From contig CANQQL010000001.1 in NCBI GenBank assembly GCA_947625975.1, forward strand, positions 10,833 through 74,832: a stretch of DNA of 64,000 nucleotides, given 5' to 3'. This document shows positions 4,434-23,800 of this stretch, in pieces. The translations under genes were made by a program, and so were the position numbers. The DNA comes from an uncultured Bacilli bacterium (GTDB lineage: Bacteria > Bacillota_I > Bacilli_A > RFN20 > CAG-826). A model generated the notes under the pieces. That model was not told where the DNA came from. It searched no databases and worked only from the letters and a program-made list of their open reading frames with translations. Position 1 is the stretch's first letter, and each line of letters begins with the position of its first letter.

Positions 4434-4601
4434 TTAAATAAAAATAAATGAAAAATATCCAGGTATAGAGAATTTTATTTAATATTTTGGTACCAGATAC
4501 GCAAATATTTTAACCAAATACGAGAAAATCATTTGTTAATATTACTTTACAAGTAAAATTAAACCGATGAAAGCGTTAACAATTCTCACTGGAGGTTAAT
4601 T

Positions 4602-7600
4602 ATGAAGAAGAAACCCTTTACGATTATGATGGGATCAATCGCTTTGGCAATAGCAGCAATTGCTATTGTAGGAAACATCTTAGCGTTTGGAACATTTGAT
4701 CCGGTATTAACAAGTTATTTTGGTGTTGAAGGAGCAACTGAAACAAGTTTTAAAGATAATCAATATTTTGAAAGAAAATATGAAAACGCTAAAGATGCTT
4801 CTGATAGAGCAGATGAAATAAGTAAAGAAATCGAAGCTGAAGGTGCTGTATTATTGAAAAATGATAATTCTGCATTACCACTTGCTGAAAATAGTTCAGT
4901 TAGTATGTTTTCTGTTTCCTCAGTTAATTTTTATTCAGGAAAATTATATGGCTCAGGCGCTATTAATTCTGATGGATTATTGACTTTAGGTCAAACTTTA
5001 GAAAATGCAAATTTAAAAGTTAATAAAACACTAGAAAATTTCTATATTTCAAAAAAGAATCAATATAGTAGAAAAATTGGTGGTTTAAATCAGGGGACAA
5101 GCAAAACGCCATACAAATGGGGAATCAATGAAGTTCCGTATAGTGAATATACAAGCGAAGTAATAGCAAGTTATAAAAATTATAATGATGCAGCGATTGT
5201 GGTTATCACAAGAGAAGGTGCAGAAAATGGTGACTTACCTCGTGATATGTCAGAAGCGGATCCTAAAAATACAGGACATATCTTAGAACTTGATTATAAT
5301 GAAAAAAAGATGATGGAAGAAGTTTGTAAAAACTTCAAAAAAGTAATAGTGTTACTCAATACAACCAACACATTCGAATTAGGCTTCTTAGATGAATACA
5401 ATATAGATGCTTGCATTTGGGTTGGTAACGTTGGTTTAGGTATGAAAAGCGTTGGACAAATAATTGCTGGAGAAATAAATCCATCTGGAAGAACTGTCGA
5501 TACATATGCTTATGATTTGTTCTCTTCACCAGCTATGCAAAACATGGGAAATTATGCCTATGTTAATGGCTCAAATGAAACGACAGGACATTATTACTTA
5601 GCTTATGCTGAAGGAATTTATATTGGATACAAATATTATGAAACACGTTATGAAGATAAAGTATTAAATCAAGGAAATGCAGGAAACTATAACTATGATG
5701 AAGTTGTACAATTCCCATTTGGCTATGGTTTAAGTTATACGACATTTGAATGGTTTGATTATTCTTCAGCAATTAAAGGCGATAATATTGAAGTTAATGT
5801 TACGGTGAAAAACACAGGTAAAATAGCAGGAAAAGATGTAGTTGAAGTATATTATCAATCGCCATATACAGCTTATGATATAAAAAACAAAGTCGAAAAA
5901 GCTTCAGTTAATTTAGGTGGAATTGGTAAGACAAAACTTTTGAAGGCTGGAGAAAGTGAAACTATTACAGTTTCTTTCCCAATAAATGATATGAAGTCTT
6001 ATGATTCAAATAACAAAAAGACCTATATTTTTGAAGCAGGTGATTATTATGTCACTGCCGCAACAAACGCACATAACGCTATTAATAATATTTTAAAGGA
6101 GAAAGGAAACAACGTTGATGGTAATAGCGAACTTGCAAGCAAACATAATATTAAATTAAGAGATGTTTCAAAAGATGATGTGACAGAAGTTGAAATAAAG
6201 AATTTGTTTGATGATGCAAAAGGTGATGTTAAATATTTAAGTCGAAACAATTGGAGTGCAATGGACAACAATGGTTTATTATATGGAACTGCTTTTGGAA
6301 AAGATAGCGACGGACCAACATATAAACACATTATTGATGCAGCATTAAAGAAAGAATTAGACACTAAGGGGTATGCTGCATCTGGAGCTCCAAATGAAGA
6401 ATTTGTAGAGCCAACAGTTGGAGCAAAGACTAATAGGAAATTAATTGAATTTAGAGGCAAAGACTTTAATGATCATGAATGGGATGAATTACTAAATCAA
6501 GTAAGAAAACAAGAAATGGTTCAAATGGCAAAATCATCAGGGCACCATACATATGCAATGCCATCTGTTGGAAAACCATATACAACTGATAGTGATGGGC
6601 CATCTGCTTGGAAACCATTTATTGGTGATGGAATATCATCGGGTGGTCTACCTGGTGAAATTGTACATGCTTCAACTTGGAATAAGAAATTAGCCTATGA
6701 AATTGGTGAAATTATGGGTGAGTTGTGTCTTTGGGCAAAAATCGAAGGTAAAGATACGAATCCTAATTTAACAGGATGGTATGCACCAGCAATGAATATT
6801 CATAGAACACCTTTTGGTGGAAGAAACTTCGAATACTATTCAGAAGATGCAACATTATCAGCGATTATTGGTTCGGAAGTTGTAAAAGGTGCAACTGAAA
6901 AAGGTGTCGTGACATATATTAAACACTTTGCAATGAATGAGCAAGAAGCGAATCGTATGACTGATAATGTTACTTGGACCAATGAACAAGCCTTAAGAGA
7001 AATATATTTAAGACCATTTGAAGTATCAATTAAAGAAGGTAAATCTTTAGGATTAATGTCTTCTTACAATAGAGTTGGTAAAGTTTGGTCTGGTGGTAAC
7101 TATAATTTAATTACAGGAGTATTAAGAACGGAATGGGGATTTAATGGATTTGTCATCACGGACTATATGGATGGTGATTACGAAGATATCGATCAAATGT
7201 TAGCGGCTGGTGGCGATGCAGCACTATACTCACTTAATGATAAACATTTAACACTAAGCGGAGCTCAAGCATTAACATACTTAAGAAGAGCGACAAAGCA
7301 TTGTTTATATGCATTTGCAAATAGTAATGCTATGAATGGTATTAGTAGTGGAACAGTAATTATAGGTGGAACACCAATTTATCATCGTTATATAATTATA
7401 ATTGATGTGATATTAGGAATTGCATTGTTAGCAACTTTAGGATCAATACCATTAAAATTATTATTAGCTCGTTCTAATGATACAGAATCTGGAACACCAC
7501 CAAGGCTAGAAGAGAAAAAGAAAAAAGAAAAACCTAAGAAAAATAAGAATGTGAAAAAAGAATTGTTAGAAGAAATCGATCAACTAAAGGAACGTATAAA

Positions 7601-7655
7601 ATCTCTACAGGCTACGCTCTCGGAAAATGCTGATGTAGATGATAAAAATAATTAA
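4602..7655 (+). CDS. GH3-family glycoside hydrolase (beta-glucosidase/xylosidase-like), paralog A: N-terminal signal-anchor, permuted GH3 domains, C-terminal TM helix and charged coiled-coil tail
   Basis: FPFGYGLSYTTFEW (normally at the GH3 C-terminal/Fn3 junction) is near residue 375. The N-terminal-domain motifs GGRNFEYYSEDA, KHF and nucleophile GFNGFVITDY are at residues 740-860. TM segment IIIIDVILGIALLATLG, then a KKKEKPKKNKNVKKELLEEIDQLKERIKSL tail. Confidence 0.85.
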   Translation: MKKKPFTIMMGSIALAIAAIAIVGNILAFGTFDPVLTSYFGVEGATETSFKDNQYFERKYENAKDASDRADEISKEIEAEGAVLLKNDNSALPLAENSSVSMFSVSSVNFYSGKLYGSGAINSDGLLTLGQTLENANLKVNKTLENFYISKKNQYSRKIGGLNQGTSKTPYKWGINEVPYSEYTSEVIASYKNYNDAAIVVITREGAENGDLPRDMSEADPKNTGHILELDYNEKKMMEEVCKNFKKVIVLLNTTNTFELGFLDEYNIDACIWVGNVGLGMKSVGQIIAGEINPSGRTVDTYAYDLFSSPAMQNMGNYAYVNGSNETTGHYYLAYAEGIYIGYKYYETRYEDKVLNQGNAGNYNYDEVVQFPFGYGLSYTTFEWFDYSSAIKGDNIEVNVTVKNTGKIAGKDVVEVYYQSPYTAYDIKNKVEKASVNLGGIGKTKLLKAGESETITVSFPINDMKSYDSNNKKTYIFEAGDYYVTAATNAHNAINNILKEKGNNVDGNSELASKHNIKLRDVSKDDVTEVEIKNLFDDAKGDVKYLSRNNWSAMDNNGLLYGTAFGKDSDGPTYKHIIDAALKKELDTKGYAASGAPNEEFVEPTVGAKTNRKLIEFRGKDFNDHEWDELLNQVRKQEMVQMAKSSGHHTYAMPSVGKPYTTDSDGPSAWKPFIGDGISSGGLPGEIVHASTWNKKLAYEIGEIMGELCLWAKIEGKDTNPNLTGWYAPAMNIHRTPFGGRNFEYYSEDATLSAIIGSEVVKGATEKGVVTYIKHFAMNEQEANRMTDNVTWTNEQALREIYLRPFEVSIKEGKSLGLMSSYNRVGKVWSGGNYNLITGVLRTEWGFNGFVITDYMDGDYEDIDQMLAAGGDAALYSLNDKHLTLSGAQALTYLRRATKHCLYAFANSNAMNGISSGTVIIGGTPIYHRYIIIIDVILGIALLATLGSIPLKLLLARSNDTESGTPPRLEEKKKKEKPKKNKNVKKELLEEIDQLKERIKSLQATLSENADVDDKNN

Positions 7656-7820
7656 AAAAGAAAAGGAGAAAATATTAATTATGAAAACTTATATCAAACC
7701 TACTGTAGAAATCGAATCTATTATGATGCAAGATGTTATTTTGTCATCAATAGCAATTAATGATTCAGAAAAAGACTTCGAAGATTGCGATGAAGTTTTA
7801 TAAAGGAAATAGATAAAATT

Positions 7821-9533
7821 ATGAAAAACAAATTATCATTTTTAGTCCTTTTAACATTTGTGGGGATATCTCTTGCTGCTTGTGGAAACGAAGAGAATTC
7901 TACTCCTAGTGTGAATAATTCTACTACCCCTACATCATCTAATATCTATGATGACGATGTAGATTTAGAAGAAAAATACGGGACACCAACAAAATTTAAT
8001 TTGACAAATGGCACAGATACTATGTCTTTTGACACAAGCAAAAGAGGTTACTATTATGAAGCTGAAGCTGCAGATCTAACTTCGCCTGCAAAAGTAAAGG
8101 ATGGTGCGACTGCATCGGGTGGCCAATTTGTTGGTAATTTTGAACCGGGAGCAACAATGATTTTTGCTATTGATGTAGTAGAAGATACAGATGCAATGTT
8201 AATGGCATCAGCTGGTTATTGGAGTTCTGGGGATTATTATGTTGAAGACTTCCTCTATGTAACTTATGGTATTGACGACACATTCTTAGATAATGATATT
8301 AATCTAAGTGATGTTTCCTTTACAGGAAGTGGAAATTATAACACATTCCGTGAATTTGTCATTGGTGAAGTTCATTTGAAAAGTGGCATAAACTATATTG
8401 AATTTGACTCTTATGGCGATGCTCTTAACTATGATTATATTTGTTTAGTTGCACCATGGGATGGAACTCCTGATGAAGAAGAGAATATTGTTGATTTAAA
8501 AGAAAAATATGGTGACGTTAAAAAGAAACATCTTACAGATGGAACAGCAACAATGTCATTTGACGATAAGACAAGAGGCTATTACTATGAAGCTGAAAAA
8601 GCAACATTAAGTGAAAAGGTACAAATTGAGGATAATCCAAGTGCATCTGGTAAAAAAGTCATTACACATTTCAATCCAGGTGAGACAATGTTGTTTGAAA
8701 TTACCTCTAGTGTCGAAGCAGATGTTTTAGTTATGATGTCTGGGGCAATGTATGACCGAGTTGATGTTGCATTTAGAAATGCAGTTAAAATTAATTATGG
8801 TAACAGTCAAGATGGATTAGAAGGTGAAGTTAACTCGTACAATCAAATGTATACAGGTACTGGTGATTGGAATATTTATAAAGAATATATGATTGGAGAA
8901 ATTCACTTAGAAGAAGGAAAGAATTATATTAATTTATTATCTCTTACGGCAATAAACTATGATTATATTGCTCTCGTTAATGAATATGATGAAGTACGTG
9001 ATGGTGACTTTAAAGAAGATGTAGAAATTAATCTTGATGAAAAATACGGATATCCTACTAAAGATGTATTATTAAATGGCACAAGCGGTATGAAATTTGA
9101 TGATTCAGTTACTGGATATTACTACGAGGCAGAAGATGCAGATTTAAGTAGTGGCATTACTTTTGAAACTGGAAATATGTCAGGTGGAAAAGGTATTGGT
9201 CATTTCCAAAATGGTGCTACAATGACTTTCACAATCAATTCAGATGTGGAAACAGATGCTTTAGTAATGTTAGCAGTAACTAGATGGAATGACGGGGATT
9301 TGTTAATGAGTGATGCATTCAAATGCGAATATGGGGCAGATTTAAATAATTTATCTGGACAAGTAAACACATTTGAAAGATCAATTAAAAATCATCAAAG
9401 TTGGTCTGCTTATGAAGAATATAAAGTCGGAGAACTTCATTTAGTAGCAGGTGTTAACTATATCAAATTTACTGGTTATAATGCCGTAAATGTTGATTAT
9501 ATGTGTTTGGTTTCGCCAATTTTAGTAGCATAA
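7821..9533 (+). CDS. lipoprotein with three tandem CBM6/CBM35-like beta-sandwich repeats (about 185 aa each)
   Basis: Lipobox LAAC. Each repeat begins D/E-L-E-EKYG...RGYYYEAE and ends GE(I/V)HL..G.NYI.F....NYDY..LV, the CBM6/35-like pattern. Confidence 0.7.
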   Translation: MKNKLSFLVLLTFVGISLAACGNEENSTPSVNNSTTPTSSNIYDDDVDLEEKYGTPTKFNLTNGTDTMSFDTSKRGYYYEAEAADLTSPAKVKDGATASGGQFVGNFEPGATMIFAIDVVEDTDAMLMASAGYWSSGDYYVEDFLYVTYGIDDTFLDNDINLSDVSFTGSGNYNTFREFVIGEVHLKSGINYIEFDSYGDALNYDYICLVAPWDGTPDEEENIVDLKEKYGDVKKKHLTDGTATMSFDDKTRGYYYEAEKATLSEKVQIEDNPSASGKKVITHFNPGETMLFEITSSVEADVLVMMSGAMYDRVDVAFRNAVKINYGNSQDGLEGEVNSYNQMYTGTGDWNIYKEYMIGEIHLEEGKNYINLLSLTAINYDYIALVNEYDEVRDGDFKEDVEINLDEKYGYPTKDVLLNGTSGMKFDDSVTGYYYEAEDADLSSGITFETGNMSGGKGIGHFQNGATMTFTINSDVETDALVMLAVTRWNDGDLLMSDAFKCEYGADLNNLSGQVNTFERSIKNHQSWSAYEEYKVGELHLVAGVNYIKFTGYNAVNVDYMCLVSPILVA

Positions 9534-9710
9534 TTAAATAACTATAAAATCCAGTTCTAATCATGGACTGGTTTTTACATTATGTAAAAACTACACTGGG
9601 AATGTGCTTTAAATATGTAATGCTTTGTGATAAAATTAAATCGTAAACTTAATATTATTTTGTATTTATTAATTGAAAAAAAGCACAAAATAGCGTGTGA
9701 AAGGTTAATT

Positions 9711-10430
9711 ATGTTTAGAATAGCAATTATTGAAGATGAAAATAGCGTAGCGGATACATTAAAAGAATATATCAACAGATTCTTTTTAGATGCAAAAAGA
9801 GATTATATTGCTAATCGCTTTGATAATGCTATAAAATTTTTAGATCAATATAAATGTGAATACGATTTAGTTTTAATGGATATAAATTTGCCTGGATTAG
9901 ATGGAATGTCTGCCATTCAAAAATTGCGAGAAAAAGATAAGGAAGTTAAAGTTATTTTTGTGACATCTTTAGCTCAATATGCTATTAAAGGATATGAAGT
10001 TAATGCGTTTGATTTTGTAATTAAACCAGTTAACTATTATAATTTCGCGTTGAAATTAAATAGGGTTATTGAACATTTTGTAGAAGACGATGGTCATGAT
10101 ATTATACTAAAGAATAAATTGGGTTTAGTTAAATTAAATATCAATACAATAAAATATATTGAGGTATCTGATCATAAGTTAATATTCCATACGACAAATG
10201 GCAATTATGAAGAGTATGCCACTTTAAACAAATATTTAGATTTGCTTAAGGATGAATCTTTTTCCTTATGTAATAGATGCTATTTAGTTAATTTACAATA
10301 TGTGAAAAAAATTACTAAAGATACAGTCTATGTCCGAGACGAACAAATTCAAATGTCGCGAAGAAAATATAAAGATTTTATGGAAGATTTAAATAAATAT
10401 CTTGGAAGTGGCGGAAATATAAATGTTTAA
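9711..10430 (+). CDS. LytTR-family response regulator (REC + LytTR DNA-binding domain)
   Basis: MFRIAIIEDE...LVLMDINLPGLDG receiver motifs, with a C-terminal LytTR-like region. Start chosen at ATG 9711 (RBS AAAGG) rather than the track start. Confidence 0.85.
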   Translation: MFRIAIIEDENSVADTLKEYINRFFLDAKRDYIANRFDNAIKFLDQYKCEYDLVLMDINLPGLDGMSAIQKLREKDKEVKVIFVTSLAQYAIKGYEVNAFDFVIKPVNYYNFALKLNRVIEHFVEDDGHDIILKNKLGLVKLNINTIKYIEVSDHKLIFHTTNGNYEEYATLNKYLDLLKDESFSLCNRCYLVNLQYVKKITKDTVYVRDEQIQMSRRKYKDFMEDLNKYLGSGGNINV

Positions 10431-11760
10431 ACTCACACAATTGTTTATTTATAAAATCTTATTTGTCATTGAAATTTTAATTGCAATGCATCTTTTTTCA
10501 TTAAAACTGAAAAAGAAATCTTATCCAGTAGTGCGTTACATTTTATCCATAATTATAACTTTGATAATTGCAGTTTTCTTTCCGATTTTTGATGGATTTT
10601 CTTACACATGGTGGTATTCATCTATCATGTTTCTGTTTTTGTTTATGCTATGTATGGTTACAATGTTTATCATTTATGATTCTTCTTGGCAAAAAATATT
10701 ATTCATATCCCTAACATCTTATTCTATTCAGCATTTATCTCATGAAATATATAATATTGTTTCAATAATGTTAAATTTAACAGATCCAGTAGAATTTGAT
10801 GTCTATGGTTCGGAAATAATTGGTGTCGTTGCTCCAGCTTTCCAATTTGTGATAGTTGTTGCAGTGTTTTTTGTAGTATACTCCATCGCTTTTGTTTTTT
10901 TAAATAAGAAAATTAATGATTATGATGGTGGGAAAATTAATAATTCGGTTATTTTATTTATAAGTTCTTTAATTTTATTTACCGATATTATCTTAAATTC
11001 ATTTGTTATATATATCGAAGAAGAATATAACACTATATATTCATACACTATAGGATTATATAATATACTTTGCTGTTTTATGGTTTTGTTCATACAATTC
11101 AGTGTTATTAGTACTAAAAAAATACAAACCGAATTAGATATAACGCAGCAATTACTGCAAAAATCTGAAGAAAGATATATTCAAAGTAAAGAAAATATTG
11201 ATTTGATAAATTTGAAATGTCATGACTTACGTCATCAAATTAGAGAATATGGTAAAAAAGGTAGTTTGTCGCCAGAATCAATTATGGATTTAGAGCAAAT
11301 GATTAATATCTATGATTCGACTGTAAAAACAGGAAACAAAACATTAGACTTAATTCTTACAGAAAAAAGCTTAATTTGCCAAAAGAAAAATATCAAATTA
11401 ACATGCCTTGCAGATTGTTCTAAATTCAATTTCATTGCGGATTCTGATTTATATTCTCTCTTCGGAAACGCTCTCGACAACGCAATAGAAGCTGTGATGA
11501 AAATAAAAGATAAGGATAAAAGAAGTATTAATTTAATTATAAGAAATATTGAAAATTACATATCTATTTCTATAGAAAACTATTTTGAGGGAAGTATAAA
11601 ACTTAATAATGAAGGACTACCAATTACTACAAAGGGTGATTCTAATTATCACGGATTTGGAATAAAATCTATGAAATATATTGTAGAAAAATATAAAGGA
11701 ACATTATCAATATCATCAAACAAAGATATATATTCCGTGTTTATCTTGTTTGTAATTTAA
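10423..11760 (+). CDS. sensor histidine kinase, AgrC/LytS-like (polytopic N-terminus, GHKL ATPase)
   Basis: 6 N-terminal TM helices, H-box region NLKCHDLRHQ, and ATP-lid GFGIKSMKYIVEKYKGTL. Overlaps the RR gene by 8 nt. Confidence 0.8.
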   Translation: MFKLTQLFIYKILFVIEILIAMHLFSLKLKKKSYPVVRYILSIIITLIIAVFFPIFDGFSYTWWYSSIMFLFLFMLCMVTMFIIYDSSWQKILFISLTSYSIQHLSHEIYNIVSIMLNLTDPVEFDVYGSEIIGVVAPAFQFVIVVAVFFVVYSIAFVFLNKKINDYDGGKINNSVILFISSLILFTDIILNSFVIYIEEEYNTIYSYTIGLYNILCCFMVLFIQFSVISTKKIQTELDITQQLLQKSEERYIQSKENIDLINLKCHDLRHQIREYGKKGSLSPESIMDLEQMINIYDSTVKTGNKTLDLILTEKSLICQKKNIKLTCLADCSKFNFIADSDLYSLFGNALDNAIEAVMKIKDKDKRSINLIIRNIENYISISIENYFEGSIKLNNEGLPITTKGDSNYHGFGIKSMKYIVEKYKGTLSISSNKDIYSVFILFVI

Positions 11761-11786: not shown

Positions 11787-11894
11787 ACCACTTGCGAATA
11801 TAGTAAAGCCATGTACGGGCAAATGGTTGTTGTGCAAGTGCTTTCAATTTAAATTGAAAGTACTTAGTTTTCTAAGTGCGAAAGGAAAATTATT

Positions 11895-13058
11895 ATGCGT
11901 AAGTTTTCGATTTTTTGCTTATCTGCTTTTTTGATGCTAGGAGGATGTTTAGTTTCTTGTGACGAAACCGAACCAAGCGTCGTTAGTACTAATAATAGTG
12001 CAAAAGTACGTGAGGGCGATGTTTGCATTGATCTAGTAATTACTCAAATGCCAAAAAAACTCGAATACAAATCAGGTGAGAGATTCTCTCCTTTAGGATT
12101 AAAGTTTGATGCTGTTTATCAAAATGGTTTTGATGGTGATAAAGGACTAGAAGCTGGCGATCTTGATGGATGGACTCCATCTGGACCATTGACTTCAAAT
12201 GATAAGACAGTAAAACTTAAATTTGAGGGATTTGAAAAAGAGATTACTATCTCTGTTGAAGAAAAAGAATTGCTTGGTGTAGAAATAACGCGCGTGCCTG
12301 ATGTTAAGTCGTATTCATTTGGTGATCTTTTAAATTTAACTGGACTCGTTGTTCGTGCAACATATGAAGAAGGAGTTGATGAAAACGAGCAAAATTATGT
12401 AGTAAAAGATAACAAAGGCAAAGTTTATGTAAACGGCACTATTTTAGATGAAGCAAATCCAGAGCTAGAATTATTTGTAAGTGTAACTTCCAAAGGAAAA
12501 ACTTATTCTGATTCCTTTAAAATTGGTGTTTATTCCGGTTTATCTGTTCAAGCAGAAGATATCATCAAAGATGGTAATTTCCCTACAGACAAATCTTATA
12601 CAACTGTAAACGAAGATTATAGTGGATATTATGAATCTAAAGATGATTGCAATTTCACGGGTACTGGCTATATCGGTACAATAGGCAAAAATTTAGAATT
12701 GAACTTCTATATATATTCAAATGTGGAAATTAAAAATGCAAGACTAGTGTTAATTGCCTCCTCTACATGTCAAGGTAATGGAAGGATGGAAGATATGAAG
12801 TTTAATGATTGTTTCTCAGCATTTATTGGAGAAGACAATACAAAACTTAATGTAGATGATAGCGTAGTTATACCTGGTTTAGAATATCCTGCGGAAGGTA
12901 TGGGTAGCAAATGGACCAATTGGGCAGATGCAGAATTTGGCACAATTAACTTAGTAAAAGGATTTAATAAGGTAAGAATTGTGTGTGTAAATACCATCTT
13001 AGATGCATCAAATTATGGTCGTACCCCTAATGTTGATAGATTGGATATAAGATTTTAA
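11895..13058 (+). CDS. lipoprotein with two Ig-like (Big-type) domains and a C-terminal beta-sandwich domain
   Basis: Lipobox GGCLVSC. ITQMPKKLEYKSGERFSPLGLKFDAVYQNG and EITRVPDVKSYSFGDLLNLTGLVVRATYEEG match the bacterial Ig-like domain pattern. Confidence 0.65.
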   Translation: MRKFSIFCLSAFLMLGGCLVSCDETEPSVVSTNNSAKVREGDVCIDLVITQMPKKLEYKSGERFSPLGLKFDAVYQNGFDGDKGLEAGDLDGWTPSGPLTSNDKTVKLKFEGFEKEITISVEEKELLGVEITRVPDVKSYSFGDLLNLTGLVVRATYEEGVDENEQNYVVKDNKGKVYVNGTILDEANPELELFVSVTSKGKTYSDSFKIGVYSGLSVQAEDIIKDGNFPTDKSYTTVNEDYSGYYESKDDCNFTGTGYIGTIGKNLELNFYIYSNVEIKNARLVLIASSTCQGNGRMEDMKFNDCFSAFIGEDNTKLNVDDSVVIPGLEYPAEGMGSKWTNWADAEFGTINLVKGFNKVRIVCVNTILDASNYGRTPNVDRLDIRF

Positions 13059-13072
13059 TAAGAGGTAAAATT

Positions 13073-16000
13073 ATGAAAAAAAAGGGTAAGATTATATCAA
13101 TTGCTGCCATATCTTTAATTGCCACAACAATTGTTGTTGGCGATATTTTTGCTGCAAAATACCGCACAATTATTTCCACATTTTTTGGATTAACTGAACA
13201 AATTGAAGGCGACGCAGACAAAGTAGAAGAAGGCGCTAAAAGTGGTGATGGAGTAGTTAGAAAAATTGCTAATGAGGGTGTAGTTTTATTAAAAAACGAG
13301 TTAAATAGTGATGGAGTACAAACTTTACCACTTCCGAAATCTACGAAAAATATAAACATTTTTGGGTGGGGTGCTACAAACGATGGCTTCCTTTTAGCAG
13401 GTAATGGTTCTGGTAAATCTATTTCTCACGAAGATAACAAAGTGACACTATTACAAGCTTTTGAAAAAGAAGGATTAAGTTATAATAAAGAAATTATTGA
13501 AATATACGAAAAACATTGTTCTAAACCTAAAGATTGGGGAGAAACTCAAGAATGGGCATACCGTAACAATACTGAATTAAAAGAACCAGTGACAAATAAA
13601 GCTTTTTCAAACGAAGTTATAAATCGTGCTAAAGAGTTTTCTGATACAGCTGTTGTTGTTTTGTCACGTTATAGTGGAGAATATGTTGGTCGTATTGCAA
13701 CATACCAAGACAAACAAGGCTTGCCAAGAGATGAAACAAGATCTTTTAGTGAGATAACTACGGAAGAAGAAACATTATTAAAAATGTGTACAAGCAATTT
13801 TAAAAATGTTATTGTCGTATTTAATTCTGGTTCAACGATGAAAATGTCATTTTTAGATGATGTTGATAAAGTAGGGAAAATAGGTGCGGCTTTAAATGTT
13901 GGATATGTTGGTCAATCTGGCTCAAGCGCTATTCCTAAAATATTATTTGGTGATGTAAATCCATCTGGCAAAATGGCAGATACCGTTGCATTTAACCCAG
14001 AAAGAGATGAAATAACACGTGTCAATTGTAAAAGTGGATCAAATGATATCGTTTATGCCGAAGATATTTATATGGGATATAAGTGGTATGAGACCGCGGA
14101 TAAAGAAGGATATTGGAATCAGTATGGTGGATATAACAAAGTAGTGCAATTCCCATTTGGTTATGGCTTAAGCTACACAAAATTTGATTGGGAAATAGAA
14201 TCTGTTAGTTTAGAATCGGGAAGTTATTTAGATAAAGAAAGTGAAATTGAAATACAAGTTAAAGTTACTAATACTGGTAGTGTTGCTGGAAAAGATGTCA
14301 TCGAATTATATTATAGCGCTCCTTACACTAAAGGGGGAATTGAAAAGTCTGCAATTAATTTATTAGATTTTGCAAAAACTCCACTTTTAGAACCTTCAGA
14401 ATCTGCAACAGTTACATTTAAAGTGACACCTTATGATATGGCAAGTTATGATGCTTATTCCAAAAACGAAAATGGACTAACTGGATGGGAACTGGATGCC
14501 GGTCAATATCAGTTAAAACTTATGACAGATTCGCATCATCTAAAAGATATGCAAAACAATACTTTAAATTATAATGTTGATTATATTTTAAGGTATAATA
14601 AAGATCCACACACTAATGGAAGAATTAAAAATCGTTTTACAGGTGAAACTGCGTATGGTGAATTACCACTTGATGGCTCAACTTTAAATGCTCAAGATGG
14701 AAAACCTTGGACTTATCTATCACGTGGCGATATTCAAAATACTATTCCTAAAGTTCGCTCAAAATCTGCAAGTAGTGACTCTTTAGCACCGTATATTGGT
14801 TATAAAAATAGCAGTTTTGATGATATATATACAAGTTTACCAACAATGGGTCAAGAAAATAACTTGCGTTTAGTAACAAAATCTGATGGTAGTTTTGTTT
14901 CTAAAGAAGAATTCGAAGGGATAGTTACTGGTGATTTTACTTTAGTATATAATGATGATTTGCTTTTTGAACTTGCGGAAAATTTCGATAGTGAAAAATG
15001 GGATTTATTGTTAAATCAATTAACAGTTAATGACATGCGTGCCTTAGTAGAAGGTAGTGGCTATAAAACACAAGCAGCCGAAAGTGTTGGAAAACCTATG
15101 TATCTTGAATATGACGGACCATCAGGTTTTAATAGAACAAATATGTCACCTAATGTTCCTGGTTCAAGAATGACGGCATTCCCTGCACAAAATCTTGTTG
15201 CTCAAACATGGAACAAAGAATTAGCGTATCAAATGGGGCAAATTGTTGGTATAGACGGCAACAACTTTGGTATTAATGGAATTTATGCTCCTACTGTTAA
15301 TTTGCATCGCGAAATGCTAAATGAAAGAAATTATGAGTGTTATTCTGAAGATCCTATTGTATCTGGCTATATGGCAGCATCATTTATAAGAGGTGCTGCA
15401 AGTAATAACGTATACTGTTATTTGAAACATTTATGCCTCTATGACGCTAGCCCTTATACTGATATTCGTATTTGGCTTACTGAACAAAACTTTAGAGAAA
15501 ACTATTTAAAACCTTTTGAAATTGCAATAAAAAAAGGTGGAGCAAATGGTTTAATGGCTTCTTTTAATAAAATTGGTGCTACTTGGGCGGGATCAAATGA
15601 TGCAATGATTAATGGTATTATTCGCACTGAATTTGGTTTTAAAGGAACAGTTATTACTGACTGGTCAGATGGATCTAATCCTGTTATGGATATTCATGCG
15701 GGTTTACGTGGTGGTTTAAATACACAATTAAATCCTAATTACCCAACAAATACTGGTAAGTATGGAATTGTTGATTTCACTAATCCAGTAGAGGCAAATC
15801 TTGCTAGAGAATCTGCTAAATCAATTTTATATACATCATGTAATACGTATTATCGCGCAAAACATAACATTGATGTTAATGAATACACAGTTGATGTAAA
15901 CGGACCACAAGCAATTAAAAAAGGGTTTGAATGGTGGATACCAACACTTATTGCATTAGAGGTAGTTATTTTTGGCGCATTAGGATATTGGCTATATAGA

Positions 16001-16213
16001 GTTTTAAGAAAACAAAAATTTAAAAAACTTGAAAATTATGATATAAATAATAACCATTCTACAAATACTCCAGCATTTAAAGAAAAAGTCAAAAAAGCGA
16101 AGCACAAAAATGATGCGGAAATGGAAGAGGAAATACGTGGAGAAATAGAAAAACTAAAAGCACGTTTAAACGAATTAACAGACACGATATCACAAAAAGA
16201 TGAGAAATATTAA
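13073..16213 (+). CDS. GH3-family glycoside hydrolase, paralog B (same double-anchored, permuted architecture)
   Basis: VQFPFGYGLSYTKFDW near residue 365. NERNYECYSEDP, KHL and FGFKGTVITDW lie C-terminal. TM segment WWIPTLIALEVVIFGALGYWLY plus a KKAKHKNDAEMEEEIRGEIEKLKARLNELT tail. Confidence 0.85.
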   Translation: MKKKGKIISIAAISLIATTIVVGDIFAAKYRTIISTFFGLTEQIEGDADKVEEGAKSGDGVVRKIANEGVVLLKNELNSDGVQTLPLPKSTKNINIFGWGATNDGFLLAGNGSGKSISHEDNKVTLLQAFEKEGLSYNKEIIEIYEKHCSKPKDWGETQEWAYRNNTELKEPVTNKAFSNEVINRAKEFSDTAVVVLSRYSGEYVGRIATYQDKQGLPRDETRSFSEITTEEETLLKMCTSNFKNVIVVFNSGSTMKMSFLDDVDKVGKIGAALNVGYVGQSGSSAIPKILFGDVNPSGKMADTVAFNPERDEITRVNCKSGSNDIVYAEDIYMGYKWYETADKEGYWNQYGGYNKVVQFPFGYGLSYTKFDWEIESVSLESGSYLDKESEIEIQVKVTNTGSVAGKDVIELYYSAPYTKGGIEKSAINLLDFAKTPLLEPSESATVTFKVTPYDMASYDAYSKNENGLTGWELDAGQYQLKLMTDSHHLKDMQNNTLNYNVDYILRYNKDPHTNGRIKNRFTGETAYGELPLDGSTLNAQDGKPWTYLSRGDIQNTIPKVRSKSASSDSLAPYIGYKNSSFDDIYTSLPTMGQENNLRLVTKSDGSFVSKEEFEGIVTGDFTLVYNDDLLFELAENFDSEKWDLLLNQLTVNDMRALVEGSGYKTQAAESVGKPMYLEYDGPSGFNRTNMSPNVPGSRMTAFPAQNLVAQTWNKELAYQMGQIVGIDGNNFGINGIYAPTVNLHREMLNERNYECYSEDPIVSGYMAASFIRGAASNNVYCYLKHLCLYDASPYTDIRIWLTEQNFRENYLKPFEIAIKKGGANGLMASFNKIGATWAGSNDAMINGIIRTEFGFKGTVITDWSDGSNPVMDIHAGLRGGLNTQLNPNYPTNTGKYGIVDFTNPVEANLARESAKSILYTSCNTYYRAKHNIDVNEYTVDVNGPQAIKKGFEWWIPTLIALEVVIFGALGYWLYRVLRKQKFKKLENYDINNNHSTNTPAFKEKVKKAKHKNDAEMEEEIRGEIEKLKARLNELTDTISQKDEKY

Positions 16214-16538: not shown

Positions 16539-16716
16539 ACTTAAAATTGTTTTAATTATATTTAATTAAAAACATCGCTAACCATTTACGAATAAAGTCA
16601 CACCATATACGTTTAATTTATAGCGGATGAAACTGCTTTCATTTATTTTATAAATGGATTATGACGATATTACAAATTAGTTTCTAAAATGTATCGAAAA
16701 TAAAGGAGAAAAGTTT

Positions 16717-20826: not shown

Positions 20827-23800
20827 ATGAAGAAACTAACAAAAGGAAATATATTTACACTAGTAGCTTTTGCCGTTATTCTTGTGGGAGTGGCTATAGG
20901 CAATTACGAATGCTATATTCATTCTACCGAAATTACAACTCATTTAATCGGAACGGGTGTTGTGATTGATTCAGAAAAGGCTCAAAACGCTTTACTAGAT
21001 GGTGATGAGCTAGTAGAAAAAATTGCCGCAGAAGGTATTGTAATGCTAAAAAATGATAACGTTCTACCTTTAAGTGTGGATAAAGATAAAGGTTATAATG
21101 TTAACTTATTTGGAGTCGGATCTACTGATGATGGGTTTGCCTATACTGGCGTAGGTGGAAGCGGTGTTGCCACAATCATAAGTGAGGATATTTTAAATAG
21201 TGATGGCACTATTAAATATAAGCATAATAGAGTTACTCTAAAAGAAGGTTTAGAACAAGCTGGTTTTAAAGTAAATACTACATTATTAGACAAATATAAA
21301 GATGGAAATCCAGATCCTTCGTTTTATAGCACGGACGATAGTGTTTTAAAAAGTGCCAAAGAATATTCTGATACGGCTATTATTACAATTACAAGACAAA
21401 CAGGAGAAAATTATAAAACTAGTGAATTAGTTGGCGATGTGGATAACGGATTACAAATTACAAGTAAAGAACAGGCAATAATTGACTATGTTTGTGATAA
21501 TTATGATAAGGTAATTATTTTAATAAATTCAACAAACACAATGGAAATGGGATATTTGCAAAATCCTAAAATTAAGGCGTGTCTTAATGTTGGAGTACCA
21601 GGTCAATCTGGAACAAGAGCAATTGGAAAGATTTTATCAGGAGATGTAAATCCTTCTGGTAAATTAGTAGATACTATTCCTTATGATACTACACAAGACC
21701 CTACTTGGGCGAATGCGATTCGAGAGGGTGGAGGAAATGGTAAAAACCAAATCTTCTATGCCGAAGATATTTATATAGGTTATAAATGGTATGAAACAGC
21801 GGATAAAGAAGGCTACTTTAACTCTGTACAAAACGACTATGGTGAAGGTTATGATGGAGTTGTTCAATATCCGTTTGGATATGGATTAAGCTACACTGAT
21901 TTTGAGTGGACACTTAAGAGTGCTGGTTTTGAAGTAGATGGAATAAAGACAGAATTGTCAAAAAGCAATATTTTGACAGATAAAAAAGCTGTCATCAATC
22001 TTGAAGTAGAAGTTAAAAACACTGGTACTGTGGCAGGAAAAGATGTTGTACAGGTATATGTGAATGCACCTTATTATAAAGGAGAGATAGAAAAACCATA
22101 TATTCGTCTAGTTAATTTTGGCAAAACTTCAATTTTAGAGCCAAATCAAACTGAAACTTTATCAATTTCTTTTGATATATACGACTTTGCATCTTACGAC
22201 TGTTATGATGCTAATAACAATGGGATTAGTGGTTGGGAACTTGATCCAGGTGATTATTGTCTTAAATTAATGACAGATGCACATCACCAATCAAATGTTG
22301 AAGATATTACTTTTGTCGTTCCGAGTGCTGAATCAGATACAGGCAGAAAAGGATTTTTGTATCGCTTCGATAATGATTCTAAGGGCTATATAAAAAACAG
22401 ATTTACTGGTGAAAGTGCGGAAGCTGGTGTCCCTATTGATGGAAGTAGTTTTGATCAAGACCCTGTTGTTTATTTATCAAGAAATGACTTTAGCAGTACA
22501 TTTCCTAAAACAAAAACAAAAAATAGAACTGAGTCAATTGTTGCGGATACATTTATAAATTATTATTATAAAGGTTATGATGATCAAAGTGATTTAGTTG
22601 CTCCAATTTTAAATAGAAACAGCGAAGAAATGCTATATTTATATACTTTGGAAGATGGCTCGAAGGCTTCATTAAATGACTTAGAAGGGACAGGAAAAAC
22701 TGTTGTTCCAAACGAAGAGTTAATCTTAGAATTGGGAGAAAATTATAAGAGCGAAAAATGGAATGAGTTATTGTCGCAAATGTCAATAACAGATATTAAC
22801 AACTTTATTTCGAGTGCTGGATTTGGGACAAAACCTATTGAAAGCATCGGGAAACCAAATTTGCTTGATTATGATGGAAGTTGTGGATTTAACCATAAAA
22901 TGGCTAATACTTATGTCAGCAATGCTTGGACTGGATATGCTGGAGAATTTGTTTTAGCCCAAACATATAATGTTGATTTAGCATTGCAAGTTGGACGTGT
23001 TATGGGTGCGGAAGCAAAAGTTACTGGTGGAATGACTGGTATTTACGCTCCTTGTGTTAACTTACACCGTACTCCTTATAATACAAGAAACTATGAGGCT
23101 TATAGTGAGGATGGTTTACTTTCTGGTTATATTGCTGCTAATGTTATTTATGGTGCTAAAACTAATGGCTTGTCTTGTTATATCAAACATTTTGCCCTAT
23201 CAGAACCTGGCTGGAATCCCAATGATTTAGCGACATGGTTAACTGAACAAAACTTAAGAGAAAACTATTTAAAACCATTTGAAATTGCAGTGAAAAAAGC
23301 TGAAGTGAATGCTGTAATGAGCGCATTTAATTGTGTTGGTGCAGTAAGATGCTGTAATAGTTATTCCTTACTTACAGAAATCTTAAGAAAAGAATGGGGC
23401 TTTAAAGGCTCAGTAATAACAGATTATAATATGGGAGAAATTTCTCAACACGTACGTGCTGGCAATGACTTGCACTTAAATCCTAATACAACTGTTATGA
23501 ATTGGATTAATGAAAAGAGTGTTGGAGATGTTTATAGTGGATATTTAGCAGTTAAAAACTCATTATTTACCTATTGTAATACGTATTATACAGCAAAAAC
23601 TTATGATCCATCTGCATCATTGGGAGTTTCCAAACGTGTTGAGCAATTCGTTTGGTGGATTCCTGTATTAATTTTCGCTGATTTATTAGTAGTCGGTTCA
23701 ATTGCGTTCTGGTTATTTAGAATGTTTAAAACGCCTAAGACAACGACTGATATAAATATTATTGCGACGGGAGATACTAAAAAGAAGAACAGGAAGAATG

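What the first reader, a model, noticed from the sequence alone, without database searches (positions are those of the whole stretch)
7377..7655. GH3 paralogs are anchored at both ends, with a cytoplasmic K/E-rich coiled-coil tail after a C-terminal TM helix
Each GH3 starts with an uncleaved signal-anchor-like helix, for example MKKKPFTIMMGSIALAIAAIAIVGNILAF. Each ends with a second TM helix followed by a 60-80-aa lysine-rich, heptad-patterned tail: KKKEKPKKNKNVKKELLEEIDQLKERIKSLQATL at 7377-7655, KKAKHKNDAEMEEEIRGEIEKLKARLNELTDTI at 15950-16213, and KKKNRKNDKRIQDLIEELKLLNKELDDLEKLKK at 23630-23913. This topology is unusual for glycoside hydrolases. It implies an extracellular enzyme held to the membrane at both termini, with a cytoplasmic oligomerisation or interaction module. 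The tail could couple to cytoplasmic partners.
Basis: seen in the sequence. Interest (0 to 1): 0.6.

Follow-up and report, generated by a model that had tools for sequence, protein, structure and literature searches.

The report
Doubly anchored GH3 enzymes with tails
Three sugar-trimming enzymes of a gut-type bacterium are pinned to the outside of the cell membrane by both ends and carry a short helical tail inside the cell. The double pinning is a conserved family trait tied to a dedicated two-component switch, whereas the tail is an optional add-on whose role is unproven.

Summary
Three paralogous GH3 genes (4602-7655, 13073-16213, 20827-23913) each encode an N-terminal hydrophobic helix, a permuted GH3 ectodomain and a C-terminal TM helix. 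Each ends in a 62-72-aa Lys/Glu-rich tail with six consecutive hydrophobic a/d positions (shuffle P 0.002, <0.0002, 0.04). AlphaFold2 predicts that segment as a helix after a disordered linker.

Double anchoring is not peculiar to this genome. 337 of 344 sampled homologs have both helices. The helices carry a covarying Asn/Asp pair (ND 167, DN 102, DD 0, swapped repeatedly between close relatives). This argues that the N-terminal helix is retained and packs against the C-terminal one.

The coiled tail occurs in about 10% of homologs, scattered over at least 25 clades and including high-GC ones. So it is neither an artefact nor a conserved domain. No known family matches it.

The family is genetically tied to an AgrC-like kinase and LytTR regulator (48 of 59 membrane-type loci, 0 of 9 soluble-type). 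A 21-bp-spaced ACCAnnTACG repeat precedes all three GH3 operons.

[quoted passage not shown] was already noted in Butyrivibrio (2010). Tail function remains inferred; self-association is my preferred reading.

The parts
4602..7655 (+). G1: permuted GH3 exo-glycosidase, 1017 aa, carrying the tail named in the finding
   Evidence: ORF and translation. Pfam GH3_C 83-343, Fn3-like 413-488, GH3_N 681-856. AF2 pLDDT 90.5. Best Foldseek PDB matches are 5k6l and 5wug, both permuted GH3. E208 and D854 are invariant in 66 homologs.
4620..4688 (+). G1 N-terminal membrane helix (res 7-29); Asn25 codon at 4674-4676
   Evidence: Hydropathy. AF2 helix 4-31, pLDDT about 90. The Asn25 column is N206/D109 in 337 homologs and covaries with the C-terminal helix.
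7389..7466 (+). G1 C-terminal TM helix (res 930-955); Asp935 codon at 7404-7406
   Evidence: Hydropathy 2.56. AF2 helix 927-960. The Asp935 column is D177/N128/E8.
7467..7652 (+). G1 cytoplasmic tail: polar linker 7467-7514, Lys-rich patch 7515-7559, heptad helix 7560-7619, acidic end
   Evidence: Coordinates. AF2 shows disorder at 962-980 and a helix at 982-1009. Heptad shuffle P = 0.002. No Pfam family.
13073..16213 (+). G2: permuted GH3 paralog, 1046 aa; last gene of the unit Big_3 lipoprotein-GH3 that follows the RR-HK pair
   Evidence: AF2 pLDDT 89.2. The same four-gene order is seen in L069, L071, L072 and L073.
13091..13156 (+). G2 N-terminal membrane helix (res 7-28, Asp24)
   Evidence: AF2 helix 4-29. 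Pair state is D/E.
15932..16006 (+). G2 C-terminal TM helix (res 954-978, Glu963)
   Evidence: AF2 helix 955-978.
16007..16210 (+). G2 cytoplasmic tail: linker 16007-16078, Lys-rich patch 16079-16114, heptad helix 16115-16189
   Evidence: AF2 shows disorder at 983-1012 and a helix at 1013-1045. Heptad P <0.0002. Orthologs at 51-74% identity often carry an alignable tail.
20827..23913 (+). G3: permuted GH3 paralog, 1028 aa
20851..20919 (+). G3 N-terminal membrane helix (res 9-31, Asn26)
23653..23727 (+). G3 C-terminal TM helix (res 943-967, Asp952)
23728..23910 (+). G3 cytoplasmic tail: linker 23728-23778, basic patch 23779-23808, heptad segment 23809-23871
   Evidence: Heptad P = 0.04.
9627..10430 (+). 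Response regulator, receiver + LytTR domains. The true start is probably Met29 at 9711, because orthologs are 236-240 aa.
   Evidence: Pfam. Ortholog lengths. Found next to family GH3 genes in 44 of 68 species loci.
10423..11760 (+). Histidine kinase, six or more TM segments + GHKL (HATPase_c_5) domain, no sizeable extracytoplasmic domain (AgrC-like type)
   Evidence: Pfam. Hydropathy. Found in 43 of 68 species loci.
11895..13058 (+). Lipoprotein with Big_3-like domain, immediately upstream of G2
   Evidence: Lipobox LGGC. Pfam. Conserved position in L069, L071, L072 and L073.
4492..4522 (+). Operator-like direct repeat ACCAGATACG-n11-ACCAAATACG, 80 bp upstream of G1
   Evidence: Pattern search gave 3 matches in 64 kb against 0.00 expected.
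11787..11817 (+). Operator-like direct repeat ACCACTTGCG-n11-GCCATGTACG, 78 bp upstream of the Big_3 lipoprotein-G2 unit
   Evidence: The same motif sits at the equivalent place in L071 (8248), L017 and L018.
16581..16611 (+). Operator-like direct repeat ACCATTTACG-n11-ACCATATACG, 106 bp upstream of the unit lipoprotein 16717 - lipoprotein 19384 - G3
7821..9533 (+). Lipoprotein with three CBM6-like repeats. In the closest relatives of G1 its homolog is fused to the GH3 through TM-loop-TM.
   Evidence: Lipobox LAAC. Weak CBM_6 match. Fusion proteins P0002-5, 7, 14, 23, 28.

Best explanation
G1, G2 and G3 are catalytically intact exo-glycosidases of the permuted (GlyA1-type) GH3 subfamily, displayed on the outer face of the cytoplasmic membrane of an Erysipelotrichales bacterium.

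Each is held by a two-helix membrane domain built from its own termini. The N-terminal helix runs N-in and acts as the export signal. It is probably not removed. The C-terminal helix runs C-in and acts as stop-transfer. The two helices contact each other through a buried Asn/Asp pair in the outer leaflet.

Behind the C-terminal helix lies a cytoplasmic tail. It consists of a basic juxtamembrane patch, a disordered polar linker of 20-30 aa, a Lys-rich patch, and one amphipathic helix of three heptads (Ile/Leu at a, Leu at d). I take this helix to be a short parallel coiled coil that helps the tethered enzymes self-associate or cluster, as homo-oligomers or between paralogs. It is an optional accessory that this family gains and loses readily.

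The three GH3 operons are the output of the adjacent AgrC-like kinase and LytTR regulator, through 21-bp-spaced ACCAnnTACG repeats.

Shown here:
- the sequence anatomy;
- family-wide conservation of both helices;
- covariation of the polar pair;
- heptad statistics;
- predicted helicity;
- the gene linkage and the repeat motif.

Inferred:
- non-cleavage of the N-terminal helix;
- actual coiled-coil formation and oligomerisation;
- binding of the regulator to the repeats.
For: **Enzyme.**
- Pfam gives the permuted domain order.
- Foldseek top hits are 5k6l and 5wug, target TM-score 0.68-0.78.
- E208 and D854 are invariant in 66 homologs. They correspond by position to the GlyA1 acid/base Glu143 and nucleophile Asp709 (PMC5104943).

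**Topology.**
- 337 of 344 homologs have both helices.
- The charge distribution is positive-inside.
- HTH_3-GH3, GH3-GH3 and GH3-TM-loop-TM-CBM fusions fit only N-in/C-in.

**Helix pairing.**
- The N-helix column is N206/D109. The C-helix column is D177/N128/E8.
- Pair states are ND 167, DN 102, NN 26, DE 7, DD 0.
- This is the top APC-corrected mutual-information pair among all N-helix by C-helix column pairs.
- The NJ tree needs about 49 switches among the major pair classes.
- ND-DN swaps occur between proteins 70-79% identical.
- AF2 gives both helices pLDDT of about 85-94 (G1) and 70-87 (G2).

**Tail.**
- Heptad P = 0.002, <0.0002 and 0.04.
- AF2 predicts tail helices.
- 35 of 337 homologs have such a tail, including Ala/Arg-rich high-GC ones.
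- The G1 and G2 tails are colinear at DNA level, P <0.002.
- All three paralogs carry the tail, although only about 10% of family members do.

**Regulon.**
- The RR and/or HK is adjacent in 48 of 59 membrane-type loci and 0 of 9 soluble-type loci, Fisher p = 3e-6.
- The repeat occurs exactly 3 times in the window, each upstream of a GH3 unit, against 0 expected. It recurs upstream of family GH3 genes in other orders.
Against: - No oligomerisation test was possible.
- Three heptads are short for an autonomous coiled coil.
- The tail is missing in the closest orthologs of G1 (fusions or 5-16-aa stubs) and of G3 (12-22-aa stubs). Whatever it does is therefore dispensable.
- A tail-only profile found nothing beyond GH3 fragments and generic coiled coils in 1.84 billion representatives.
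- Pfam finds nothing.
- For the N-terminal helix, a -3/-1 signal-peptidase pattern exists in 249 of 337 homologs. G1 has ILA|F and G2 has IFA|A.
- SignalP-type tools called the equivalent segment a signal peptide in Bgl3A and SN243 (PMC5217386; bioRxiv 10.1101/2022.04.25.489410).
- The count of covariation events rests on an NJ tree of sequences that are not a random sample of the family.
Confidence: 0.5

Rival explanations
1. The membrane domain and tail are a signalling link. The GH3 ectodomain senses substrate outside. Its two-helix bundle and cytoplasmic tail dock onto the adjacent AgrC-like kinase, which has no external sensor domain. GH3 + HK + RR would then form a three-component glycan sensor, with the coil contacting the kinase's cytoplasmic helices.
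For: - RR-HK-(lipoprotein)-GH3 gene order is conserved across Firmicutes and Actinobacteria and is restricted to membrane-type GH3s.
- The kinase has six or more TM segments and only short loops.
- TM1-ectodomain-TM2-cytoplasmic helix is the topology of classical sensors.
- The cytoplasmic end of the family is a hot spot for added modules. These include coils, 150-200-aa globular domains and an N-terminal HTH_3 fusion.
- A buried, conserved polar pair is unusual for a mere anchor.
Against: - Linkage and the operator repeats are fully explained by the GH3 being only a regulated target.
- Most homologs next to the same two-component system have 5-30-aa tails, so the coil cannot be the essential link.
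- Kinase lengths are the same (445-451 aa) whether the neighbouring GH3 has a coil or not.
- There is no interaction evidence.
Confidence: 0.2
2. The tail has no specific partner. It is an over-grown stop-transfer or topology-fixing segment, a basic patch plus helix-prone K/E sequence that drifts in length in A+T-rich genomes.
For: - Tail length and type are highly variable, with a median of 22 aa.
- The tail profile finds no family and no Pfam domain.
- The genome is 30% G+C and the Lys-rich patches are A-runs.
Against: - The heptad register is significantly non-random in all three tails.
- The same terminal motif (..QQI..L..EI.ELK.LL) recurs in high-GC homologs with Ala/Arg-rich tails.
- All three paralogs keep a tail, although only about 10% of the family does.
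- The G1 and G2 tails are still alignable at DNA level, while their ectodomains are 31% identical at protein level.
Confidence: 0.2
3. The N-terminal helix is an ordinary cleaved Sec signal peptide. The mature enzymes are then type I membrane proteins held only by the C-terminal helix, not anchored at both ends.
For: - The n-h-c layout has Gly-Asn/Asp at -5/-4 and small residues at -3/-1 in 249 of 337 homologs.
- Relatives were predicted to have signal peptides (PMC5217386; PMC2914790; bioRxiv 10.1101/2022.04.25.489410).
Against: - The Asn/Asp covariation with the C-terminal helix includes repeated reciprocal swaps and no D/D state. It is hard to explain if the helix is removed long before the C-terminal helix is made.
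- The juxtamembrane segment after the helix (res 29-41) also covaries with the F-x-W-W-I-P segment before the C-terminal helix.
- G3 has Y-E-C at -3/-1, which is a poor site.
- In L071 a member carries a folded HTH domain in front of this helix, which then must be a signal-anchor.
- AF2 confidence for the helix is about 90.
Confidence: 0.15
4. The terminal helix is an in-plane amphipathic helix that lies on the inner membrane surface, recruited by the Lys-rich patch, rather than a coiled coil.
For: A polybasic patch directly precedes an amphipathic helix, and the segment lies close to the membrane.
Against: - The hydrophobic stripe is narrow, covering only the a/d positions.
- The helix segments are rich in Glu/Asp and roughly charge-neutral (seen in sequence).
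- This composition is typical of coiled coils, not of membrane-surface helices.
Confidence: 0.05

Closest known systems
Permuted-topology GH3 beta-glycosidases: GlyA1 (PDB 5K6L-O), Paenibacillus barengoltzii Bgl (5WUG), BrGH3A
   Same: Domain order is (alpha/beta)6 sandwich, then FnIII, then (beta/alpha)8 barrel. They are the best structural matches. The acid/base Glu and nucleophile Asp positions are conserved (PMC5104943, PMC11233000).
   Different: Those enzymes are described as soluble. BrGH3A lacks a signal peptide and is proposed to be intracellular (PMC11233000). No membrane helices or cytoplasmic tail are described. Sequence identity is only 25-26%.
Butyrivibrio proteoclasticus 'secreted GH3 with C-terminal TMH' next to LytTR regulators (PUL7, 21, 33; e.g. 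Bgl3A Bpr_I0693)
   Same: An N-terminal export signal, a GH3 and a C-terminal TM helix, with a LytTR response regulator close by (PMC2914790; PMC5217386). The window has the same arrangement.
   Different: That work reports the co-location in one genome and calls the N-terminus a signal peptide. It does not describe helix pairing, the Asn/Asp pair, the cytoplasmic tail, the operator repeat or the cross-phylum distribution. I did not verify that Bgl3A belongs to the same clade.
SN243, a metagenomic GH3 beta-glucuronidase
   Same: It was reported with a predicted N-terminal signal sequence and a C-terminal TM domain, and proposed to be surface-bound (bioRxiv 10.1101/2022.04.25.489410).
   Different: The ends were simply trimmed for expression. 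No tail or regulatory link was discussed. Its relationship to G1-G3 was not tested here, and the substrate specificity of G1-G3 is unknown.
Sensor topology TM1-extracytoplasmic domain-TM2-cytoplasmic helix (chemoreceptors, many histidine kinases), and accessory-protein-dependent intramembrane-sensing kinases (BceS/BceAB, LiaS/LiaF)
   Same: The membrane topology is the same. The linked kinase has no external domain. The partner membrane protein is encoded in the same locus. This comparison rests on general knowledge of these systems.
   Different: The external domain here is an apparently active enzyme. The cytoplasmic part is tiny and non-conserved. No HAMP, DHp or other signalling domain is present. 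Interaction is unproven.
RsgI-type anti-sigma factors of Clostridia with extracellular glycan-binding or GH-like sensor modules
   Same: A carbohydrate-active module outside is linked through the membrane to gene regulation. A sigma/RsgI pair even sits in the related locus L071.
   Different: RsgI proteins have the cytoplasmic anti-sigma domain at the N-terminus and a single TM helix. No such domain exists in G1-G3.

Membership tests
GH3, permuted (GlyA1-type) subfamily | Domain order GH3_C sandwich, then FnIII-like, then GH3_N barrel | tested here: met
   Pfam coordinates in all three paralogs. Foldseek top hits are 5k6l and 5wug.
GH3, permuted (GlyA1-type) subfamily | Catalytic nucleophile Asp in the barrel and acid/base Glu in the sandwich domain | tested here: met
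   G1 D854 (VITDY) and E208 are invariant in 66 aligned homologs including G2 and G3. The roles are assigned by position relative to GlyA1 Asp709 and Glu143 (PMC5104943).
GH3, permuted (GlyA1-type) subfamily | Exo-glycosidase activity and substrate | not testable with these tools
   NCBIfam equivalog models all score far below their cut-offs. Specificity is unknown.
Membrane-anchored GH3 linked to LytTR regulators (as noted in B. proteoclasticus) | N-terminal hydrophobic export segment and C-terminal TM helix | tested here: met
   Also seen in 337 of 344 homologs.
Membrane-anchored GH3 linked to LytTR regulators (as noted in B. proteoclasticus) | LytTR response regulator (and kinase) adjacent | tested here: met
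   RR 9627-10430 and HK 10423-11760. Adjacent in 48 of 59 membrane-type loci and 0 of 9 soluble-type loci.
Parallel coiled coil | Heptad repeat with hydrophobic a/d positions over three or more heptads, no Pro or Gly breaks | tested here: met
   Six of six a/d positions are L/I in each tail. Shuffle P = 0.002, <0.0002 and 0.04.
Parallel coiled coil | Helical conformation | tested here: met
   AF2 helices G1 982-1009 and G2 1013-1045, 10-residue block mean pLDDT up to 93 and 87. G3 was not modelled.
Parallel coiled coil | Actual self-association (dimer or trimer) | not testable with these tools
   Only monomer prediction was available. Three heptads are marginal for an autonomous coiled coil.
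Cleavable Sec (SPase I) signal peptide | Positive n-region, h-region, small residues at -3/-1 | tested here: inconclusive
   G1 has ILA|F, G2 has IFA|A and G3 has YEC|Y. The pattern is allowed in 249 of 337 homologs. The hydrophobic stretch is 16-23 residues, long enough to be an anchor.
Cleavable Sec (SPase I) signal peptide | Removal from the mature protein | not testable with these tools
   Covariation with the C-terminal helix and the HTH fusion argue against removal. No predictor or experiment was available.
Sortase (LPXTG) cell-wall anchor | LPXTG motif before the C-terminal hydrophobic segment and a short basic tail | tested here: not met
   No LPxT[GASN] in the last 200 residues of G1-G3. 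The tails are 62-72 aa.
Accessory sensor of an intramembrane-sensing histidine kinase (three-component system) | Kinase without extracytoplasmic sensor domain, with a membrane protein encoded in the same conserved locus | tested here: met
   Kinase hydropathy. Conserved linkage.
Accessory sensor of an intramembrane-sensing histidine kinase (three-component system) | Physical and functional coupling of the membrane protein to the kinase | not testable with these tools
   No interaction or genetic data are available.

The most novel reading that the evidence does not exclude
The doubly anchored GH3 is not only a regulated enzyme. It would be the extracellular sensing subunit of the neighbouring AgrC-like kinase, which has no sensor domain of its own. 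Substrate engagement by the ectodomain would be relayed through the Asn/Asp-stapled two-helix bundle. In some lineages the relay would also use cytoplasmic add-ons: a coiled tail as here, globular domains, or a direct HTH fusion. The result would be an enzyme-coupled three-component glycan-sensing system conserved from Erysipelotrichales and Clostridia to Bifidobacterium and Cellulomonas.
Probability: 0.2. Interest if true: 0.8.

Novelty: new variant of a known kind. Interest (0 to 1): 0.5.

Why it matters
Gram-positive gut and rumen bacteria hold much of their glycan-degrading machinery at the cell surface. How these enzymes are retained and how their genes sense substrate is poorly known compared with Bacteroidetes.

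This work makes a widespread GH3 clade directly testable on three points. The clade has thousands of homologs.
- It appears to be held by a defined two-helix membrane domain with a covarying polar pair.
- It is hard-wired to a dedicated LytTR two-component system.
- A recognisable operator precedes its genes.

For enzymologists, it cautions that trimming the "signal peptide" and the "TM domain" removes what may be a functional unit.

The coiled tail itself is a modest curiosity unless it proves to mediate clustering or kinase coupling.

Tried and rejected
- **Tail-only profile.** I searched a profile of 12 tails (A3) against 1.84 billion representatives. Only 10 hits reached E ≤ 1e-3. They were GH3 fragments of the input clusters plus generic coiled-coil proteins. 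No tail family exists outside GH3, or the tail is too low in information to detect.
- **Domain searches on tails.** Pfam on the three tails and on six longer tails of homologs gave nothing above threshold. NCBIfam gave no named family for the GH3s, the kinase, the lipoprotein or the small ORFs.
- **Sortase anchor.** Rejected, because there is no LPXTG motif.
- **Wall-less host.** I considered a Mollicutes-like organism that would need TM anchors. The window encodes asd, DAP epimerase and an aminotransferase, and it has many lipoproteins, so this idea is not needed.
- **Source contig.** The look-up of encoding contigs for the window's own protein returned nothing. Taxonomy came from the LeuRS cluster name instead.
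- **Recent gene conversion between tails.** Rejected. G1 and G2 are only about 60% identical at DNA level, although colinear, and G3 is not detectable.
- **Promoter and terminator scan.** Promoter-like hits are at background level. Terminator-like hairpins after 9533 and 11760 only hint at unit boundaries.
- **Kinase-GH3 covariation.** I set up residue covariation between the kinase and the GH3 pair state but dropped it. There are too few loci, and the alignments of distant GH3 ends are poor.
- **Small-ORF family.** An HMM search of the other loci found it only in close relatives.
- **Literature.** No paper combines LytTR with "glycoside hydrolase family 3". The B. proteoclasticus remark was found through a broader search.

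Full report
**1. What is in the window**

The window is 30-33% G+C, and almost all genes lie on the + strand. Its leucyl-tRNA synthetase falls in a 90% identity cluster that NCBI names "Erysipelotrichales bacterium".

Between 4.6 and 27.3 kb lies a surface glycan-degradation cluster:
- three GH3 genes: G1 4602-7655, G2 13073-16213 and G3 20827-23913;
- four lipoproteins with lipoboxes and repeated CBM6-like modules or a Big_3 domain (7821-9533, 11895-13058, 16717-19371, 19384-20811);
- two alpha/beta-hydrolase esterases and a DUF4886 lipoprotein;
- a response regulator with a LytTR domain (9627-10430) and a multi-TM GHKL kinase (10423-11760).

**2.

The quoted peptides are at the quoted coordinates. 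The paralogs are only 31-38% identical. All have the order GH3_C, Fn3-like, GH3_N, which is the permuted topology first described for GlyA1 (PMC5104943).

The AlphaFold2 model of G1 (66-sequence alignment, pLDDT 90.5, pTM 0.89) matches GlyA1 (5K6L) and the Paenibacillus enzyme (5WUG) best. E208 and D854 of G1 are invariant across 66 homologs. They sit where GlyA1 has its acid/base Glu143 and nucleophile Asp709. The proteins therefore look like active enzymes.

Each protein begins with a +3/+4 N-terminus and a 22-23-residue hydrophobic segment. Each ends with a 25-26-residue hydrophobic segment followed by 62-72 residues with K+R 17-18 and D+E 14-15.

Each tail contains six consecutive a/d positions occupied by Leu or Ile. 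Composition-preserving shuffles reach the observed score with P = 0.002 (G1), <0.0002 (G2) and 0.04 (G3).

AlphaFold2 gives the same picture for G1 and G2. There is a long N-terminal helix, then a C-terminal TM helix, then a disordered linker (pLDDT <50), then a terminal helix of 28-33 residues. The 10-residue block mean pLDDT of that terminal helix reaches 93 in G1 and 87 in G2.

**3. Double anchoring is a family trait, and the two helices appear to touch**

Searches with each paralog returned 7,675-7,998 proteins at E ≤ 1e-10 among the 8,000 candidates scored in each search. They come from Clostridia, Christensenellales, Bacilli, Erysipelotrichia and Actinobacteria.

Of the 344 full-length best hits, 337 have both an N-terminal and a C-terminal hydrophobic helix. 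Charges follow the positive-inside rule.

The helices are not bland.
- The N-terminal helix has a near-invariant Gly-Asn/Asp four residues before its outer end (N 206, D 109).
- The C-terminal helix has Asp/Asn/Glu about eight residues after a conserved F-x-W-W-I-P interface motif (D 177, N 128, E 8).
- The two columns covary: N/D 167, D/N 102, N/N 26, D/E 7, and never D/D.
- This is the strongest APC-corrected mutual-information pair among all N-helix by C-helix column pairs.
- On a neighbour-joining tree built from the ectodomain only, the major pair classes (ND, DN, NN, DE, other) change about 49 times, and D/N forms at least 26 separate clades.
- Reciprocal swaps are seen between proteins that are 70-79% identical, such as P0151/P0154, P0200/P0251 and P0148/P0149.
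- Juxtamembrane residues after the first helix also covary with the F-x-W-W segment.

I read this as a direct interhelical carboxamide-carboxylate contact in the outer leaflet. Such a contact requires the N-terminal helix to stay in the mature protein.

Three kinds of natural fusion agree with an N-in/C-in topology.
- In L071, a member carries an XRE-type HTH domain in front of the first helix.
- P0012 is a tandem GH3-GH3 joined tail to head.
- The closest relatives of G1 (P0002-5, 7, 14, 23, 28; 56-72% identical) continue from the C-terminal helix through a 28-40-aa K/E-rich loop. They then pass through a further TM helix into a 550-750-aa external module. That module is homologous to the window's separate lipoprotein 7821-9533.

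The caveat is real. I could not run SignalP or DeepTMHMM. A formally acceptable -3/-1 site follows the Gly-Asn/Asp in 249 of 337 homologs. Published work on relatives calls this segment a signal peptide (PMC5217386; bioRxiv 10.1101/2022.04.25.489410).

**4. The tail is real but optional**

| Ending after the C-terminal helix | Homologs (of 337) |
|---|---|
| Stub of 35 aa or less, basic | 188 |
| Second TM helix | 48 |
| Other long tails, including 150-230-aa apparently globular domains | 58 |
| External-module fusions | 8 |
| Tail with a significant heptad segment | 35 |

The heptad tails are scattered over at least 25 clades. They occur in Lys/Asn-rich low-GC proteins and in Ala/Arg/Glu-rich high-GC proteins. 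They often end in a similar motif (…K-x-P-T/S-x-K-Q-Q/E-I-x-x-L/M-x-x-E-I-D/E-E-L/I-K-x-L-L), usually within about 15 residues of the C-terminus. So the tail is not a low-complexity artefact of an A+T-rich genome.

G2's orthologs (51-74% identical) frequently carry an alignable tail. The closest orthologs of G1 and G3 do not. G1's and G2's tails are colinear at DNA level (P <0.002 against codon shuffles), while G3's is not detectably related.

All three paralogs of one genome carry a feature seen in about 10% of the family. This suggests a host-specific use.

A profile of 12 tails found no further family in 1.84 billion representatives. Pfam finds nothing in any tail type.

**5. Context: a dedicated two-component system**

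I ran tblastn with the window's regulator and kinase against the flanks of family GH3 genes in 68 species-representative genomes. The regulator was found in 44 and the kinase in 43, often as RR-HK-GH3 on one strand.

Splitting the loci by GH3 type gives 48 of 59 membrane-type loci with the system and 0 of 9 soluble-type loci (Fisher p = 3.4e-6). The taxa include Bifidobacterium, Cellulomonas, Microbacterium, Blautia, Gemmiger and Bacilli.

In the window and in L069, L071, L072 and L073, the order RR-HK-Big_3 lipoprotein-GH3 is conserved, with G2 as the GH3.

A direct repeat, ACCAnnTACG-n11-ACCAnnTACG, occurs exactly three times in the 64-kb window against 0.00 expected. Its period is 21 bp, which from general knowledge is the layout typical of LytTR operators. 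All three copies are on the + strand. They lie 78-106 bp upstream of G1, of the Big_3 lipoprotein-G2 unit and of the lipoprotein-lipoprotein-G3 unit.

The motif recurs upstream of family GH3 units in L071, L017 and L018. In degenerate form it recurs in about ten more loci. The three GH3 operons are therefore very probably the regulon of this system.

The kinase has six or more TM segments and no sizeable external domain.

**6. How it most likely works**

Shown here:
- the architecture;
- conservation of the two helices;
- covariation of the polar pair;
- the heptad pattern;
- predicted helicity;
- the gene linkage;
- the repeat motif.

Inferred: the enzymes sit on the outer membrane face, stapled by both termini. 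The basic patch fixes topology. The terminal helix forms a short parallel coiled coil. By general coiled-coil rules, Ile/Leu at a and Leu at d favour dimers. This coiled coil would add avidity to self-association or clustering of enzymes that are already concentrated in two dimensions.

The main rival is that the membrane domain, helped by the tail, couples the enzyme to the kinase as a sensor. The linkage data allow this but do not require it. The frequent absence of the tail argues that the tail is at most a modulator.

A neutral-spacer reading is weakened by the heptad statistics and by the recurrence of the tail in high-GC homologs.

**7. Comparison with what is known**

- Permuted GH3s are known (PMC5104943, PMC11233000).
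- Bgl3A and SN243 were described with a signal peptide plus a C-terminal TM helix (PMC5217386; bioRxiv 10.1101/2022.04.25.489410).
- I found no description of the helix-helix Asn/Asp pair, the cytoplasmic tails or domains, the operator repeat, or the cross-phylum, membrane-type-specific linkage.

**8. Verdict**

The finding is a new variant of a known kind. Interest is moderate at 0.5. The tail alone is a minor curiosity. The stapled membrane domain and its dedicated regulatory system make the family a tractable candidate for enzyme-coupled glycan sensing.

Noticed in passing
window 7681-7803 (+); L071 927-1058 and 19801-19923; L072 6891-7028: A conserved 40-45-aa ORF sits directly after family GH3 genes. 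Its motif is M..Y.KP.v.i....ED(I/V)(L/I)..S with an acidic C-terminus. The window copy is MKTYIKPTVEIESIMMQDVILSSIAINDSEKDFEDCDEVL, preceded by a GGAG ribosome-binding site. There is no Pfam or NCBIfam hit. It was found only in close relatives. Next to an AgrC-like kinase, it could be a signalling peptide or an acidic partner of the basic tail.
   Followed up: partly
window 4492-4522, 11787-11817, 16581-16611: Direct repeats ACCAnnTACG spaced 21 bp, found only upstream of the three GH3 transcription units (0 expected by chance). The same motif lies upstream of family GH3 genes in Oscillospiraceae and Subdoligranulum loci. This is the likely LytTR operator.
   Followed up: yes
L071 15328-19788: One 1486-aa protein with the architecture XRE-type HTH, TM, permuted GH3, TM, basic loop, TM, CBM-like modules. 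It lies beside a sigma70_r2/RsgI_M pair. It is a natural fusion of a cytoplasmic HTH domain to a family GH3.
   Followed up: partly
P0002-P0005, P0007, P0014, P0023, P0028 versus window 4602-9533: In the closest relatives, the G1 ortholog and the downstream CBM6-like protein form one polypeptide of about 1570-1770 aa, joined by TM-loop-TM. In the window they are a GH3 with a coiled tail plus a separate lipoprotein. This is a gene fission or fusion that links the two proteins functionally.
   Followed up: partly
P0162-P0182, P0192-P0197, P0203, P0210, P0213, P0223-P0242, P0275, P0306, P0317: Other family members carry 140-230-aa cytoplasmic tails that look globular. They share a pattern (…Y..IK.YA..K… G..V..L.i..G...A.F…) and have no Pfam match. 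This may be an unrecognised small cytoplasmic domain.
   Followed up: partly
window 7821-9533, 16717-19371, 19384-20811: Lipoproteins built from two to four repeats of a module of about 190 aa (EKYG…GYYYEAE…NYDY(I/M)xLV). The match to CBM_6 is weak and sub-threshold. These are probably glycan-binding partners of the GH3s.
   Followed up: no
window 16200-16463 (+): An 87-aa ORF overlaps the last 14 nt of G2 (…KDGKWQIKLATGERAIKLFDKQRDAIEYAKNLMETQGGSIRIHSLKGKIRK). It has no Pfam or NCBIfam hit.
   Followed up: no
window 28268-33748: JetA (28268-29725), DUF4194/JetB (29725-30354) and a JetC-like SMC ATPase (30332-33748) have no recognisable JetD after them. The next gene is a 2-TM DUF3137 protein (33775-34677). 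This is either an MksBEF-like condensin or an incomplete Wadjet system.
   Followed up: no
window 9627-9710: The mechanically called GTG start of the response regulator adds 28 residues that orthologs (236-240 aa) lack. The real start is probably the ATG at 9711.
   Followed up: partly
window 2613-3885 and 3934-4128 (-): Two uncharacterised ORFs follow ribulose-phosphate 3-epimerase. One is 204 aa and soluble. The other is 222 aa with six TM segments. Neither has a family hit. rpmB (ribosomal protein L28) lies on the opposite strand just upstream of G1.
   Followed up: no
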